The notes: generated from the letters alone by a model not told the origin. Shown: positions 6,154 through 61,640, numbered from the stretch's first letter. The stretch is DNA of 62,402 bases from a virus (IMGVR_UViG_3300029219_000144); one strand, 5' to 3'. Translations and numbers: made by a program.

Positions 6154-6187
6154 ATAGACACAATCCCTCCTGATTTACACAAGCCCT

Positions 6188-6202
6188 AAAACAATTTGTT
6201 TT
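6188..6202. promoter_or_regulatory. 15-bp palindrome AAAACAATTTGTTTT (operator family copy 1)
   Basis: Perfect inverted repeat; first copy of a motif found at least 10 times upstream of start codons in the phage element. Confidence 0.5.
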
Positions 6203-6237
6203 CTACCTTTTGTTGATTGAGATAATAAGCCACATAA

Positions 6238-6253
6238 GAAAACAAATTGTTTA
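6238..6253. promoter_or_regulatory. Palindrome GAAAACAAATTGTTTA (operator family copy 2), abutting the RBS of the 6258 ORF
   Basis: Same palindrome 50 bp after copy 1, immediately followed by GGAG and ATG. Confidence 0.5.
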
Positions 6254-6257
6254 GGAG

Positions 6258-6506
6258 ATGAAGATGTTTGGAACAGCAAAAGAAATCATCGAGAAACTGA
6301 AAAACTATCCAGAAGACGAACCCTTACTCATGGTTATGTGGCACAAAGAAGATATTGCTGAAGTAAGGACAGATCTCACTGATGAACAATGCGTACAGGT
6401 GATGCAAAAAATCAGACAATACCATAACGCTGATGTCGGCGTTAATTGGGAGGTTATATCAACTACGGCGAATGAGTTGTTTCCGAACGGGGTGGTAAAA
6501 TGCTGA
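6258..6506 (+). CDS. hypothetical phage early protein (82 aa)
   Basis: ORF with AGGAG just upstream (second ATG at 6264 has better spacing); preceded by the operator palindrome. Confidence 0.5.
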   Translation: MKMFGTAKEIIEKLKNYPEDEPLLMVMWHKEDIAEVRTDLTDEQCVQVMQKIRQYHNADVGVNWEVISTTANELFPNGVVKC

Positions 6507-6688
6507 AACTCACCAAATTGTATAAGACGACAGTTAGTAGCCCTACCCTCGTTACACAGCATGACTCTGAGTGTCTACCAAATATCTGTTTCGAGCACCA
6601 TACGATCTCGGACTCAATTGGGTACAGAAACGGAGTATGGGGGAGTCAGGGGAGGGAAGAAAAGCTGCGTGATTACGGTGTCACATAG
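6500..6688 (+). CDS. hypothetical small protein (62 aa)
   Basis: ATG overlaps the stop of the upstream ORF (ATGCTGA), suggesting translational coupling; no motif recognised. Confidence 0.3.
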   Translation: MLKLTKLYKTTVSSPTLVTQHDSECLPNICFEHHTISDSIGYRNGVWGSQGREEKLRDYGVT

Positions 6689-6800
6689 CAAACCATCAAG
6701 AACATTCGAAAGGTGCTCGATGTAGGATTTGATGCGGTACAATTCCACCCTGACGCTGAAATAGACGATGGTCTGGAAAATTGGAAATTGTGAGGGATAA

Positions 6801-7199
6801 ATGAAATATGCACCATTGGCACTAATATTTTTTGTGCTTTCTGCTAATGCCACGCCAGTTGAAGAGCCTAACACTATCGTGTACCCACGATGCATGAAAA
6901 TAGATCCGGAAACACACAAGCAATTACCTGGTTACAATATTGTTATGGATATAGGGAATAAATTTAAAATCGTTTCCCCAAATGGGAATTCGGTGATATC
7001 CATCTCGCTTGCCCAAAGTGAAAAAGATAGGAACATGTTCGACGCCTCAGTCGGCGATGTTTACTTCTCTCGTTACCATGTTCAACCTGATGGGAACTTT
7101 CTATACTCAGCCTGGAGTGAAAAGGCGAAAGTTACAGTGCTGTGTAATGGTAAAAGCGGTGAGCGGCATTACGTTGACCCTATTCATTTCGAGAACTGA
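6801..7199 (+). CDS. hypothetical secreted protein (132 aa, N-terminal signal peptide)
   Basis: N-terminus MKYAPLALIFFVLSANA then TPVEEP looks like a Sec signal peptide; RBS GAGGGA 5 nt upstream. Confidence 0.55.
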   Translation: MKYAPLALIFFVLSANATPVEEPNTIVYPRCMKIDPETHKQLPGYNIVMDIGNKFKIVSPNGNSVISISLAQSEKDRNMFDASVGDVYFSRYHVQPDGNFLYSAWSEKAKVTVLCNGKSGERHYVDPIHFEN

Positions 7200-7329
7200 C
7201 TACACAAGTAAACAAATCAATCAGTTGATAATGGCGGTCACAATTTGATTCTTTTCTATAAGAATCCGTTGATCGCCACTACTCCCCTTCCATACCTGCA
7301 ATCACATCCTTAAATATCAATAAGTTATA

Positions 7330-8110
7330 GTTGTTTATACAATCAAGAAAACAACTGAATAACAGATCAACGAAACATCAACGCTTTCACCCGATTTGGT
7401 CTAAAAAATTGACGTTTTCACACATCACTGCTTATACCCGTAATTCTACGCAGCAGACAGCGCCACAGCGTCCAATTTTCACCACAGACGACCCAACACA
7501 CTACCAACAAAAACACACGCTCAAAATCGTTCCCGTTGCGTTACACAACCATATAAACAACTTATTTTAAGGCATAGCAAAACAACTAAATAACACACAT
7601 GCCATTCCCCAAAACAACCAACCTCTTTATGGCAGGCTACCGAAAAGACCCACCTCTTCTCCCCAGGCTACCGGACAACCAACCTAACTTTCACAGGCAA
7701 TCCGAAAACATTCATACGCGCGATACCCACGACACGCCATTACCCAAACAGCGAAGAAACACCAGAATCACTGAAACCCCAACGAAGCCTGTAACCGCAA
7801 GGTTTCTCTCAATCCCAAAAGACACGAAACATAACAATCACGGGAAACGCCATTACCCAATACACGAATAACTACAAAAGCCTTCACACACTCCAGACAA
7901 ACAACTCAAACACAATAACGAAAGGAATCGCCAACCTGCCATTACTCCATACACGGAGAAGAACAATCACCAAAACGACGAGAACACCCCATAGAAGAAC
8001 CACCGCAAAACGAACGAAACCACATACACCGACAGAGAGAACAACACGCCCAATTCACCAACAGAAATAGTCGCCGTATAGAACGTTCTGGAAGGAGTGA
8101 GCATTAACGC
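7330..8110 (+). other. ~0.8 kb non-coding tract with strong strand asymmetry (A+C-rich, G/T-poor on the + strand)
   Basis: Visibly few G and T over hundreds of bases (ccaacc, cacgaaac, caaaacgacga motifs); ORFs here lack RBS and have low-complexity translations. Confidence 0.6.
7607..7695 (+). repeat. Degenerate ~85-bp intergenic element, copy A (paired with 10785-10865)
   Basis: Shares aaaacaaccaacctctt .. caggctaccg .. acccacct .. ggctaccg .. caactttc with copy B by eye. Confidence 0.5.
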
Positions 8111-8277
8111 CTATAGAGAGGTTGAGACAGATAAAACACGAAGAAAACACAACATGTATAGCGAAGAAGACAGGTATGTATAAGTGGGGAGGGAAGGAGT
8201 GGTGTCGCCTCCTTTTTCGTATTTATTCAACTCCTGATTTTATCCCCCGTAAAACCCCTACGGTCAGCCTTCGGTCC

Positions 8278-59949: not shown

Positions 59950-60148
59950 ACGGGAGAAGGAAACGCTTCATGAAATCAGTAAGTGGCCGGAGTTCCCTGA
60001 GTACTGGAAGCCTAAAACGCGAGCTAAGTTAGAGCGTTTAGGGTTGGTTGCAAACGTTTCTGAAACGTGGTGTTCGGCCAACTACCAGTTAACTGATAAA
60101 GGGAAAGTATTGCTACAGCAATTAGTAGAATCAGGAGTGTTAAAATGA
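59933..60148 (+). CDS. hypothetical protein (71 aa)
   Basis: ORF with AAGGAG RBS. Confidence 0.45.
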   Translation: MIVLSKREKETLHEISKWPEFPEYWKPKTRAKLERLGLVANVSETWCSANYQLTDKGKVLLQQLVESGVLK

Positions 60149-60297
60149 TTCCATACATCTCATTAGCTTTTATGGGTGGCTTCCTTATCGGCTTCGGCAT
60201 CTGTCGTGATTTAATTAAGCAGGAACTTAAAACCAAAACACTGTGCATCGGAAAGCGTGTGTATCGGGTAGTTCATGAAACAAAGGTGAAAAAATGA
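60145..60297 (+). CDS. hypothetical small membrane protein (50 aa)
   Basis: ATG overlaps the upstream stop; hydrophobic N-terminus MIPYISLAFMGGFLIGFGI. Confidence 0.3.
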   Translation: MIPYISLAFMGGFLIGFGICRDLIKQELKTKTLCIGKRVYRVVHETKVKK

Positions 60298-60584
60298 GCA
60301 ATTTAACTTCTTGGGAATGGTGGTTGGCCACCTATTTCTTAGCGGCCGGAGTCGCATTCGCCTTTTACGTAGGTCAGTTAGTCGTAAAACTGTTGCTGAT
60401 TAAATTTGCTAGTCATAAACGTATCGATGATGGTCTGTGGCGTCTTGGCACCCTGGTGGAAACTCGCTACGGGCAACTTAAGGAGAACGAAACCATTACT
60501 ATCCAAGCGAAACGATTCACTGCCACCATCACAAGAACACCTAGTCGTAGAGTGGCCTTGATCAAAAAAGTCACAACCGAATAA
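60294..60584 (+). CDS. hypothetical membrane protein (96 aa)
   Basis: Start overlaps the upstream stop; N-terminal TM WWLATYFLAAGVAFAFYVGQLVV. Confidence 0.45.
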   Translation: MSNLTSWEWWLATYFLAAGVAFAFYVGQLVVKLLLIKFASHKRIDDGLWRLGTLVETRYGQLKENETITIQAKRFTATITRTPSRRVALIKKVTTE

Positions 60585-60593
60585 AAACATATC

Positions 60594-60615
60594 GATAAGT
60601 ATTTACTTACTTATC
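60594..60615. promoter_or_regulatory. Palindrome GATAAGTAtttactTACTTATC
   Basis: Perfect 8-bp arms of the TAAGTA/TACTTA family at the start of the right-end non-coding region. Confidence 0.45.
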
Positions 60616-60789
60616 CTTTGTGTATAAGATGACTTTGTTTTCGTTGAGACGCGACTGTTTGAACTTAAATACAAGAGCAAACGAAGAAGTCTATCTGGCA
60701 GTAGCCTAATAAGCCAAACACCAGCGAGGTCAGTTTCCAGCCTCGTTACCGAAATGGGACACACTGAGCGAGTGTGATTGCAGAACGCA

Positions 60790-60813
60790 GGAGGGAACAT
60801 TCATGTTCCCTCC
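60790..60813 (+). other. Perfect 11-bp-stem hairpin GGAGGGAACAT tc ATGTTCCCTCC enclosing a Shine-Dalgarno sequence and a 6-codon mini-ORF (MFPPMK)
   Basis: Stem contains AGGAGGG followed by ATG TTC CCT CCG ATG AAG TAA. Confidence 0.5.
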
Positions 60814-60974
60814 GATGAAGTAACAGAATGGGCGGTTGGTATATTTTCAACTCCATATGACTCCCGGATTCTTAGCCACTGACCGCCCATCCTGTTACGT
60901 CATTTTGTTCAATTATGTCGTTTATACTGGGTTAAAAAGCGGCGACGTAGCCCGGCTGGTATGGTTAGCCAGCA

Positions 60975-61096
60975 CACAACGTTGAGGCCATTACATTTTT
61001 ATCAATTCTAAGGTTCTATTCACAGAGATACCGGCGAGCGTTGATATGTAACATGTTGGGCAAACATTCAATCGGAGTAGTGGCCTCAACGTTGTG
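60975..61096. repeat. Long-range inverted repeat CACAACGTTGAGGCCA / TGGCCTCAACGTTGTG (16 bp arms, ~90-bp spacer)
   Basis: Exact reverse-complement arms at 60975-60990 and 61081-61096. Confidence 0.55.
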
Positions 61097-61362
61097 AAGA
61101 CGGGATTGTTGTGTAGGTTTAACCACTGTTGCCATTGGTGCCTGTTTTCACAACAAATGATTCCATACATCACATTGTATAAATTACAAAGTAGGTGCTG
61201 TCCTCAGAAACATCATCTACTTAAAGATTTTGCCTTCTACTATTGAGCGAAGTCGAAAGCGTCTGGCACTAACGAAAAGTGCAAGTAGCGGTGCGTTTCC
61301 TGGCAGAAACTAAACCGTCGCGATTGGCACTGTTGAGTAATAAATACTGGCAGTGCTGAATT

Positions 61363-61437
61363 GATGGTGTAGCTCAGCGGTAGAGCAGTTGGCTGTTAAC
61401 CAACTGGTCGGTGGTTCGAATCCACCCACCATCGCCA
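61363..61437 (+). tRNA. tRNA-Asn (anticodon GUU)
   Basis: Hand-folded cloverleaf: 7-bp acceptor stem GATGGTG/CACCATC, D-arm GCTC/GAGC, anticodon stem GTTGG/CCAAC with loop CTGTTAA, T-arm GGTGG TTCGAAT CCACC, discriminator G; CCA encoded. Confidence 0.85.
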
Positions 61438-61640
61438 ATTTAGGGGTTTGAGGGCCAATGATGCAAAAAACCACGCTAAGAGGTTAGTTCATTGTTTATA
61501 TTGAGATTGTTAGGTACTGCGTTTGCAGCCACTTCAGTCGTCATGGGGGGAGGGACAATGGAACGCAACACCAAGTAGATTGATGGCATAAAGTTCCTTC
61601 AATTCCGATCTGCTCTCCCGCTTTCATTTTCTGCTGCAGA

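What the first reader, a model, noticed from the sequence alone, without database searches (positions are those of the whole stretch)
6154..61440. ~55 kb phage-like element with no integrase, excisionase or cI-like repressor, yet contiguous with chromosomal metG
Every ORF of 60 aa or more was inspected and none has tyrosine- or serine-recombinase or transposase hallmarks, and no lambda-type immunity region was found. The element instead carries plasmid-type partition and a TA pair and a lytic-style replication set. Possible explanations are a phage-plasmid, a virulent phage joined to host DNA by misassembly, or an unrecognised integration mechanism; I cannot distinguish these from sequence alone. 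The exact junction with host DNA lies between the metG terminator and the first operator palindrome (about 6154-6187).
Basis: inference. Interest (0 to 1): 0.6.

Follow-up and report, generated by a model that had tools for sequence, protein, structure and literature searches.

The report
Piece of a known phage-plasmid
The window is about half of a well-known 110 kb SSU5/Cyrano-type E. coli phage-plasmid that lives as a free plasmid; the "chromosomal" metG is the plasmid's own captured copy, so the missing integrase is ordinary.

Summary
The phage-like genes are real, but the puzzle is not. The whole window (1-61439), not only 6154-61440, is colinear at 91-98% identity with complete ~100-120 kb E. 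coli plasmids and with phage-plasmid Cyrano (pLF82) of the SSU5 group.

- **Left "junction":** colinearity runs straight through 6154-6187.
- **metG:** the apbC-metG pair is 97-98.6% identical to the copies on 215 such plasmids. It is only about 88-90% identical to E. coli chromosomes, so it is a plasmid-borne captured cassette. metG itself is 94% nt identical to the K-12-lineage gene, with dN/dS 0.02.
- **Location of relatives:** in 5,426 complete E. coli genomes the terminase-portal segment occurs 244 times, always on plasmids.
- **Recombinase:** profile searches confirm none in the window. Relatives carry a tyrosine recombinase, a putative repressor and RepA just beyond the window's right end.
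- **Right "junction" (~61440):** this is the inverted repeat of a Tn3-family transposon carrying a SIR2-HerA defence pair. It is inserted at the 5' end of the element's tRNA-Tyr gene. Its herA is in turn cut by an IS5-family element, and the window ends there.

Verdict: already known, low interest. Side observations are a FljA-like flagellin repressor and a dispersed promoter-proximal palindrome.

The parts
1..1684 (-). Type I restriction-modification genes of the phage-plasmid: hsdM (122-1684) and the first bases of hsdS (1-125). The window starts inside hsdS.
   Evidence: Pfam N6_Mtase 2.5e-121 and HsdM_N. Synteny with hsdM-hsdS-hsdR on plasmids p88COLEC-2 and NZ_CP062914.
2036..2775 (+). 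P1-type hot (Pol III theta, 2036-2287) and humD/UmuD-like S24 peptidase (2386-2775). The peptidase has no HTH domain, so it is not a cI-type repressor.
   Evidence: Pfam DNA_pol3_theta 1.6e-29 and Peptidase_S24 2.3e-08. 87-88% DNA identity to P1 hot-humD.
2813..6104 (.). Captured chromosomal cassette: apbC/mrp (2813-3913, minus strand) and metG (4071-6104, plus strand), divergently transcribed, both intact.
   Evidence: Pfam ParA/NUBPL 2.4e-102 and tRNA-synt_1g 4.6e-166. 95-99% identity to 215 plasmid records against ~90% to all 5,426 chromosomes. Homology to any chromosome is limited to 2812-6112. metG dN/dS is 0.023 against the K-12 lineage. Annotated as MetRS in Cyrano.
6188..6253 (.). Two copies of the 15-bp palindrome AAAACAA-N-TTGTTTT bracketing a -10-like GATAAT upstream of the DUF1380 gene (6258-6506). 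Further good copies start at 9233, 10136, 10900, 20017, 20042, 50381 and 53202.
   Evidence: 16 strand-matches found against 0.6 expected. 19 sites in Cyrano against 0-2 in shuffles.
13782..14384 (-). FljA-like protein (repressor of phase-1 flagellin family), in an allelic variable segment (13468-14830).
   Evidence: Pfam Flag1_repress 2.3e-83, full length. 68% aa identity to the 'transcriptional regulator' of p88COLEC-2. This allele is present at >=99% identity in 88 plasmids.
15083..19622 (.). UvsW-like DEAD-box helicase (15083-16642, minus strand). Two ParB_N-domain proteins (16707-17405, 17372-18073). An ABC-type ATPase (18070-18735) and its partner (18732-19622).
   Evidence: Pfam ResIII, DEAD, Helicase_C, ParB_N twice and ABC_tran. 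phrog_886. Cyrano annotation.
20096..46616 (+). Virion module: small terminase-like DNA-binding protein, TerL, portal, scaffold-like protein, major capsid protein, Ig-like decoration protein, head-tail connectors, tail tube, tape measure (30505-35097), tail tip M/L/K/I, J (37636-42366) and tail fibre (42459-46616).
   Evidence: Pfam Terminase_6N, GP7, Big_2, tail terminator, TMP_3, Phage_min_tail, Phage_tail_L, NLPC_P60 and Gp34_trimer. 82% DNA identity to SSU5 and 95-98% to Cyrano and CMS-2020a.
47850..49144 (+). Lysis cassette: holin, endolysin and Rz spanin.
   Evidence: Synteny and identity with Cyrano CYRAN_22-24.
49313..50150 (-). Toxin-antitoxin pair: GNAT acetyltransferase toxin (49313-49834) and TacA/DUF1778 antitoxin (49842-50150).
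   Evidence: Pfam TacA1 5e-24 and Acetyltransf_7/1. Named KacT/antitoxin in Cyrano and expressed in lysogeny (PMC9928086).
50430..51457 (+). Plasmid partition: small ParA/MipZ-type ATPase (50430-51098) plus a 119-aa partner (51098-51457).
   Evidence: Pfam MipZ 5.4e-12, AAA_31 and CbiA. 'ParA plasmid partitioning protein' in Cyrano. The partner's role is inferred from position only.
53235..59773 (+). Replication genes: DnaB-like helicase (53235-54575), primase (54585-55838) and ATP-dependent DNA ligase (58451-59773). Between them lies a variable insert, including a 350-aa minus-strand ORF (55840-56892) of unknown function.
   Evidence: Pfam DnaB_C 2.2e-12, Toprim_2/DNAG_N (weak) and DNA_ligase_A_M 1.3e-12. 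The 350-aa ORF matches phrog_22938 (unknown function) and has no Pfam or PADLOC hit.
61363..61437 (+). tRNA-Asn (GTT), the first gene of the phage-plasmid's own tRNA array and the last backbone feature in the window.
   Evidence: ARAGORN. The same gene heads Asn-Thr-Ser or Asn-Tyr-Thr-Ser arrays in Cyrano, p88COLEC-2, pMB3825A_2 and L097.
61443..62321 (-). End of a Tn3-family transposon. It comprises a 38-bp terminal inverted repeat (GGGGTTTGAGGGCC...ACGCTAAG, 61443-61480) and the 3' 226 codons of herA from a SIR2-HerA defence pair (61641-62321). It is inserted at the first bases of the element's tRNA-Tyr gene.
   Evidence: The repeat occurs at both ends of the tnpA-tnpR-SIR2-herA unit in pEsST80_L1_NDM. 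tblastn gives 100% identity to HerA residues 465-690. PADLOC HerA 1.1e-111. Relatives read ...GCCAATTTA-GGGGAGTTAG (tRNA-Tyr) at this point.
62322..62402 (.). First ~80 nt of an IS5-family element (ISKpn26-like) that interrupts herA. The window ends inside it.
   Evidence: The terminal repeat GGAAGGTGCGAATAAG is at 62322. Intact herA in L004 diverges exactly here. pA18-1 has an annotated ISKpn26 at the same point. An independent metagenome contig stops 30 nt earlier.

Best explanation
The window is a 62.4 kb segment of a ~110 kb SSU5-group (SSU5_pHCM2 / Cyrano-pLF82 type) temperate phage-plasmid of Escherichia coli.

In lysogeny such elements are not integrated. Inferred steps, with their basis:
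- They replicate as low-copy circular plasmids from a RepA-type initiator. That gene lies outside the window.
- They are segregated by a ParA-type partition system and stabilised by a TacA/GNAT toxin-antitoxin pair, both inside the window.
- The family's one tyrosine recombinase, also outside the window, probably resolves plasmid multimers as Cre does in P1. It is not thought to integrate the element.
- On induction they use their own replication genes (DnaB-like helicase, primase, ligase and, outside the window, DnaE and others) and a siphovirus virion module.

apbC and metG are a two-gene cassette captured long ago from an Escherichia-like chromosome. The cassette has been kept intact under purifying selection as cargo of the element, so its edge at 6104-6112 is a cargo boundary, not an attachment site.

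The edge at about 61440 is where a Tn3-family transposon carrying a SIR2-HerA defence pair landed in the element's tRNA-Tyr gene. An IS5-family element later cut herA, and the sequence stops at that repeat.

Shown here: identity, colinearity, plasmid-only location of relatives, absence of a recombinase in the window, and the nature of both edges. Inferred: the physical state of this particular copy and the roles of RepA, Par, the TA pair and the recombinase.
For: Colinearity and identity:
- Window 72-61439 is colinear with the 111 kb plasmid p88COLEC-2 at 91-98%, with no break at 6154-6187.
- It is 95-98% identical to Escherichia phages CMS-2020a, Cyrano and PhiR41_1, and 82% identical to SSU5.
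- 42 plasmids cover at least 80% of window 1-6300.

Location of relatives:
- The terminase-portal segment occurs in 236 of 5,426 complete E. coli genomes. All 244 places are on plasmids and none on chromosomes.
- Relatives are circular, non-mobilizable plasmids of rep_cluster_488.

The metG cassette:
- 215 records match it at 95-99%, against ~90% for every chromosome.
- Homology to chromosomes of 80 enterobacterial species is confined to 2812-6112 and is at best 88%.
- metG is 98.7% aa and 94.1% nt identical to the K-12 lineage, with dS 0.29 and dN/dS 0.023.

Genes missing from the window:
- The integrase, repressor and RepA of relatives lie beyond the tRNA array and give no tblastn hit in the window.

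The right edge:
- It is a Tn3-family inverted repeat placed in tRNA-Tyr.

Literature:
- Cyrano is present at 5.5 copies per cell, makes siphovirus particles and is induced by ciprofloxacin (PMC9928086).
- Phage-plasmids need no integrase (PMC7969092).
- Tn3-like transposons in SSU5-group elements sit near the tRNA loci (bioRxiv 10.1101/2025.09.12.675607).
Against: - The window contains neither repA nor the recombinase and repressor, and it reaches neither end of anything. The circular extrachromosomal state of this very copy is therefore inferred from relatives, not seen.
- One draft contig (MOFW01000041.1, L097) is 99.2-99.6% identical to window 50323-61446. It joins the element through an IS3-family element to chromosomal cobUST-erfK-asnV. 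A chromosomal state is therefore not impossible in this lineage.
- The other end of the Tn3-family transposon and its target duplication are outside the window.
Confidence: 0.93

Rival explanations
1. The element is integrated in a chromosome, either by an unrecognised mechanism or by IS/transposon-mediated cointegration. The window would then show part of an integrated prophage.
For: - A 224 kb draft contig (L097) carries a 99.2-99.6% identical relative joined through an IS3-family element to chromosomal cobUST-erfK-asnV.
- Several other draft contigs carrying the element are 0.2-0.5 Mb long.
- The window ends in mobile elements that could mediate cointegration.
Against: - Nothing in the window is chromosomal. 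The metG cassette is the plasmid allele.
- None of the 244 occurrences in complete E. coli genomes is chromosomal.
- No att-like repeats were found.
- In L097 only one junction is visible. By coordinate arithmetic the element would start near the contig's own end, so a repeat-induced misjoin is equally possible.
Confidence: 0.04
2. Assembly artefact: a virulent phage genome was wrongly joined to host DNA at about 6160.
For: The window's right end does lie in a repeat (an IS5-family element), which shows that it is an assembly contig.
Against: - The same metG-DUF1380 adjacency is found in more than 200 independently assembled complete plasmids and in phages Cyrano, CMS-2020a and PhiR41_1.
- The metG allele is the plasmid type, not the host type.
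- A metagenome contig reproduces the right-hand junction at 100% identity.
Confidence: 0.01
3. The sequence belongs to the same family, but this copy is a defective, plasmid-only derivative that can no longer form virions or lysogenise.
For: - The tRNA-Tyr gene is destroyed by a transposon, which in turn carries an IS.
- The half of the element holding repA, int, the repressor and DnaE is unseen.
- Hybrid or defective phage-plasmids are said to be common (abstract of PMC12977533).
Against: All virion, lysis and replication genes in the window are intact, full-length ORFs 95-99% identical to those of Cyrano, which makes particles.
Confidence: 0.15

Closest known systems
Escherichia phage Cyrano (= plasmid pLF82 of AIEC LF82; OV696614), SSU5_pHCM2 group of phage-plasmids
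   Same: - 96.5-98.5% DNA identity and the same gene order across most of the window.
- The shared stretch includes S24 peptidase, apbC ('MinD'), MetRS, helicase, ParB-like genes, the whole virion module, lysis genes, the KacT-type TA pair, ParA, DnaB, primase, ligase and tRNA-Asn.
   Different: - Cyrano has Asn-Thr-Ser tRNAs and no transposon there. The window's lineage has Asn-Tyr-... with a Tn3-family insertion.
- Different alleles occupy 13468-14830 (the FljA-like region), 46098-47779 and 55813-58364.
- The window has a type I R-M system and P1-like hot where Cyrano has Ea22-like genes.
Salmonella phage SSU5 (JQ965645 / NC_018843), type member
   Same: About 82% DNA identity over the virion and replication modules, in the same order.
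   Different: At megablast level there is no match to window 1-19960, so SSU5 has no apbC-metG cassette detectable at DNA level. Its host is Salmonella.
Phage-plasmid P1
   Same: - It works the same way: a plasmid prophage with a Par system and addiction module, and a site-specific recombinase used for multimer resolution rather than integration.
- P1's immunity operators are scattered around its genome (established knowledge of P1).
- Window 2045-2771 (hot-humD) is 87-88% identical to P1.
   Different: The virion (a siphovirus, not a myovirus), the replication genes and the backbone are unrelated. The element is not a member of the P1 group.
Lambda-type integrated prophage
   Same: Lambda-like tail tip genes (M, L, K, I, J) and the tape-measure C-terminal domain.
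   Different: No int/xis, no att repeats, no cI-cro immunity region and no chromosomal flanks.
Tn3-family transposon with SIR2-HerA cargo, as on pEsST80_L1_NDM (NZ_CP031216)
   Same: The 38-bp terminal repeat is identical in 37 of 38 positions, and herA residues 465-690 are 100% identical.
   Different: Only one end is inside the window. herA is interrupted by an IS5-family element. tnpA, tnpR and SIR2 are unseen.

Membership tests
SSU5-group phage-plasmid (SSU5_pHCM2 / Cyrano type) | Virion and replication modules homologous to and colinear with SSU5 and Cyrano | tested here: met
   82% identity to SSU5 and 95-98% to Cyrano and CMS-2020a. Colinear blocks span window 72-61439 against p88COLEC-2.
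SSU5-group phage-plasmid (SSU5_pHCM2 / Cyrano type) | Plasmid partition functions on the same molecule as the phage genes | tested here: met
   ParA/MipZ-type ATPase at 50430-51098 with a small partner. Two ParB_N proteins at 16707-18073.
SSU5-group phage-plasmid (SSU5_pHCM2 / Cyrano type) | Plasmid replication initiator (RepA, rep_cluster_488) | tested here: not met
   tblastn with Cyrano RepA finds nothing in the window. In relatives repA lies about 20 kb beyond the window's right end, so the failure reflects the window's limits rather than the element.
SSU5-group phage-plasmid (SSU5_pHCM2 / Cyrano type) | Extrachromosomal circular state in lysogeny | not testable with these tools
   Relatives: 244 of 244 places in complete genomes are on plasmids, and Cyrano is at 5.5 copies per cell. 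The state of this copy needs reads or gels.
SSU5-group phage-plasmid (SSU5_pHCM2 / Cyrano type) | Production of infective virions | not testable with these tools
   Shown for Cyrano by qPCR and electron microscopy (PMC9928086). Here only intact ORFs can be reported.
Integrated temperate prophage | Site-specific recombinase or transposase within the element | tested here: not met
   No Phage_integrase, Resolvase, Recombinase, rve or DDE family in any real gene. tblastn with the family integrase is negative.
Integrated temperate prophage | Flanking chromosomal DNA and att direct repeats | tested here: not met
   The flanks are plasmid backbone on the left and a transposon on the right. The longest shared word between the edges is 12 nt, equal to the shuffle maximum.
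Tn3-family transposon (right edge) | 38-bp terminal inverted repeat beginning GGGG and ending TAAG | tested here: met
   Window 61443-61480. The same repeat is found in inverted orientation at both ends of the tnpA-tnpR-SIR2-herA unit in L004.
Tn3-family transposon (right edge) | TnpA and TnpR genes and a 5-bp target duplication | not testable with these tools
   These lie beyond the end of the window.

The most novel reading that the evidence does not exclude
The apbC-metG cassette is not passive cargo. This E. coli branch of SSU5-type phage-plasmids maintains a diverged second methionyl-tRNA synthetase and an Fe-S carrier beside its own tRNA array. The cassette is at plasmid copy number and under strong purifying selection (dN/dS 0.02). 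On this reading it forms a selected module that changes host translation or stress physiology, or that supports phage translation. No paper in the searched library mentions it. The apbC homologue is listed among lysogeny-expressed morons of Cyrano.

Separately, the evidence does not exclude that this lineage is occasionally captured in the chromosome through IS recombination (L097).
Probability: 0.3. Interest if true: 0.4.

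Novelty: already known. Interest (0 to 1): 0.1.

Why it matters
As posed, the finding does not matter much. It is a textbook case of a phage-plasmid fragment read as an integrase-less prophage.

Its practical value is as a caution. Housekeeping-looking genes (metG, apbC, tRNAs) next to phage genes do not prove a chromosomal context, and a 60 kb window can miss the half of a 110 kb element that holds rep, int and the repressor.

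The copy itself documents a defence-carrying Tn3-family transposon landing in the tRNA array of an SSU5-group element. This fits a recent report that such transposons cluster at that locus.

Tried and rejected
- **350-aa minus-strand ORF (55840-56892).** I first suspected an integrase. It has no Pfam or PADLOC hit and matches only phrog_22938, of unknown function.
- **234-aa ORF at the right end.** I guessed IS26 transposase. It is the C-terminal part of HerA, and the apparent in-frame extension past 62322 is really the end of an IS5-family element.
- **Insertion site of the transposon.** I tried to read the junction as an insertion into tRNA-Thr with a small deletion, by comparison with Cyrano. 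Relatives with an Asn-Tyr array show instead that the backbone runs to the first GGGG of tRNA-Tyr.
- **att-like repeats.** A search between the two edges found nothing above chance.
- **The exact tRNA|transposon junction.** It is absent from IMG/VR and from all complete E. coli genomes. It was found once, in a metagenome contig.
- **Donor of the cassette.** The scan of 185,579 species genomes gave no chromosome closer than 88% at DNA level. The 99% protein hits are ordinary Escherichia-type metG genes, one of them in a record labelled Enterobacter hormaechei.
- **Literature.** Searches for metG or FljA in SSU5-type elements returned nothing.
- **Not used.** Structure prediction and the large protein searches were not needed.

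Full report
**What is in the window.** ORF listing, composition and a tRNA scan show a long, mostly plus-strand run of phage-like genes. A tRNA-Asn lies at 61363-61437.

**Similarity to known elements.**
- Megablast against phage records matches Escherichia phages CMS-2020a, PhiR41_1 and Cyrano, all ~108 kb, at 94-98% identity. Salmonella phage SSU5 matches at 82%.
It also matches ~100-120 kb non-mobilizable E. coli plasmids at 97-98%, and 42 plasmids cover at least 80% of it.
- Direct blastn against the 111 kb plasmid p88COLEC-2 gives colinear blocks from window 72 to 61439. One block (72-6575, 97.7%) runs through the proposed junction at 6154-6187. The break at 6575 is an IS1 in the reference.

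**The metG question.**
- Window 2800-6300 finds every one of 5,426 complete E. coli genomes. Chromosomal copies are about 90% identical and cover only the two genes, whereas 215 records match at 95-99%.
- Against chromosomes of 80 enterobacterial species, homology is confined to 2812-6112, from the apbC stop to the metG stop. The best match is 88%, to E. coli.
- metG is intact with all MetRS domains. It is 98.7% aa and 94.1% nt identical to the K-12-lineage gene, with dS 0.29, dN 0.0067 and dN/dS 0.023.
- The cassette is therefore an old capture from an Escherichia-like chromosome, maintained by selection as cargo of the element. Cyrano's record annotates the same two genes as MetRS and 'MinD'.

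**Is the family ever chromosomal?** The terminase-portal segment occurs in 236 of 5,426 complete genomes, at 244 places, all on plasmids and none on chromosomes. Relatives are circular plasmids of rep_cluster_488. Cyrano (pLF82) is kept at about 5.5 copies per cell, yields siphovirus particles and is induced by ciprofloxacin (PMC9928086). The SSU5 supergroup is the largest known set of related phage-plasmids, and such elements need no integrase (PMC7969092).

**Recombinase and repressor.**
- Pfam on 49 non-structural ORFs (scanned as concatenated polyproteins), on the structural genes and on the cargo genes finds no integrase, resolvase, transposase, excisionase or cI-type HTH family.
- PHROGs places the ten Pfam-negative ORFs that were scanned in phage families, eight of unknown function and none a recombinase.
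- tblastn with Cyrano's integrase, putative repressor and RepA gives no hit in the window.
- In Cyrano, p88COLEC-2, pMB3825A_2 and nine of ten further contigs, a 367-aa Phage_integrase protein and a convergent 128-aa HTH protein lie 2-3.5 kb past the tRNA array. RepA lies further on. All of this is beyond the window's right end.

**The right edge.**
- Backbone matches stop at 61439-61446. From 61440 the sequence is 100% identical to a segment found on thousands of resistance plasmids.
- In pEsST80_L1_NDM that segment is the end of a tnpA-tnpR-SIR2-herA unit bounded by 38-bp GGGG...TAAG inverted repeats. The same repeat sits at window 61443-61480.
- Relatives with an Asn-Tyr-Thr-Ser array read GCCAATTTA-GGGGAGTTAG at this point. 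The transposon therefore entered at the first bases of tRNA-Tyr.
- The 3' part of herA (PADLOC HerA 1.1e-111) is cut at 62322 by an IS5-family terminal repeat. This element is annotated as ISKpn26 at the same position in pA18-1, and the window ends 80 nt into it.
- A metagenome contig is 100% identical over window 53191-62372 and stops 30 nt earlier, as expected at a repeat.
- No complete E. coli genome and no IMG/VR contig has this junction.
- A recent survey reports Tn3-like transposons in SSU5-group elements inserted near the tRNA loci.

**No attachment-site signature.** The longest word shared by the two edges is 12 nt, equal to the maximum in 200 shuffles.

**How it works.**
- *Shown here:* family identity, plasmid-only location of relatives, the cargo nature of metG, the transposon edge, and the presence of ParA, TA, virion, lysis and replication genes.
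- *Inferred from the family and from P1 as an analogue:* RepA-driven plasmid replication; segregation by ParA and its 119-aa partner; post-segregational killing by the GNAT toxin; multimer resolution by the tyrosine recombinase; repression of lytic operons by a repressor encoded outside the window.
- *Fit with the last point:* the palindrome AAAACAA-N-TTGTTTT occurs at 8-9 good sites in the window and 19 in Cyrano, against about 0.6 expected. Each good site lies 10-40 nt upstream of a start codon with a -10-like element about 12 nt before it. Sites precede the operons for terS, parA and dnaB. This scattered layout would explain why no compact lambda-type immunity region is seen. The binding protein is unknown.

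**Residual doubt.** One draft contig (L097) is 99.2-99.6% identical to window 50323-61446. It joins the element through an IS3-family element to chromosomal cobUST-erfK-asnV. Only one junction is visible, so this could be IS-mediated capture or a misjoin. It does not bear on the metG edge, but it means a chromosomal state cannot be ruled out for every copy.

**Verdict.** This is a known kind of element and a near-identical relative of described ones. Interest is low.

Noticed in passing
window 13782-14384 (-), within variable segment 13468-14830: A full-length FljA-family protein (Pfam 'Repressor of phase-1 flagellin', E 2.3e-83) with no flagellin gene beside it. Its neighbours are a small secreted protein and a lipoprotein-like ORF. 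A 68%-identical allele sits at the same place in p88COLEC-2, and this allele is in 88 plasmids at >=99%. A phage-plasmid that may switch off host flagellin is not mentioned in any paper found.
   Followed up: partly
window 6188, 6239, 9233, 10136, 10900, 20017, 20042, 50381, 53202 (15-mers); 19 sites in Cyrano: A dispersed palindrome AAAACAA-N-TTGTTTT, about 25-fold over chance. Good sites lie 10-40 nt upstream of start codons and about 12 nt downstream of a -10-like hexamer, and two sites bracket the promoters at 6188/6239 and 20017/20042. It is a candidate operator set for a global regulator, comparable to P1's scattered C1 operators.
   Followed up: partly
window 2813-6104: A second, diverged copy of an essential aminoacyl-tRNA synthetase (metG) plus apbC, carried on a multicopy phage-plasmid. 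metG is under strong purifying selection (dN/dS 0.023, dS 0.29). About 4% of complete E. coli genomes carry this cassette. No literature was found on it.
   Followed up: partly
window 61443-62402: Nested mobile elements: a Tn3-family transposon with SIR2-HerA defence cargo is inserted in the element's tRNA-Tyr, and its herA is then disrupted by an ISKpn26-like IS5-family element. The defence pair is therefore probably inactive. The same IS position is seen in Citrobacter plasmid pA18-1.
   Followed up: yes
L097 (MOFW01000041.1, GCA_001891545.1), locus 13752-20291: A 99.2-99.6% identical relative lacks the integrase. It continues through an IS3-family element into chromosomal cobU-cobS-cobT-erfK-asnV-nac on a 224 kb draft contig. 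Other draft contigs carrying the element are 0.2-0.5 Mb long. This may be rare IS-mediated chromosomal capture, concatemers or misjoins.
   Followed up: partly
window 51454-52257 (+): A DUF2971 protein directly after the par genes matches the PADLOC candidate defence family PDC-S31 (E 3.1e-41). This slot is variable among relatives, which carry a GIY-YIG-like or other gene there.
   Followed up: no
window 2036-2775: The hot (Pol III theta) and humD (UmuD-like) genes are 87-88% identical in DNA to those of phage-plasmid P1. This suggests gene exchange between the P1 and SSU5 groups.
   Followed up: no
window 55840-56892 (-) and 57076-58416 (+): A variable insert between primase and ligase. It holds a 350-aa minus-strand ORF (phrog_22938) and two plus-strand ORFs, all of unknown function with no Pfam or PADLOC hit. 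It is shared with L097 but not with Cyrano or p88COLEC-2.
   Followed up: partly
L012 (CP170191.1, labelled Enterobacter hormaechei B56 chromosome): Its apbC-metG region matches the window about as well as E. coli C600 does (88.35% against 88.38%), and clearly better than the Enterobacter, Citrobacter and Salmonella loci compared (80-85%). The record may be mislabelled at species level.
   Followed up: no
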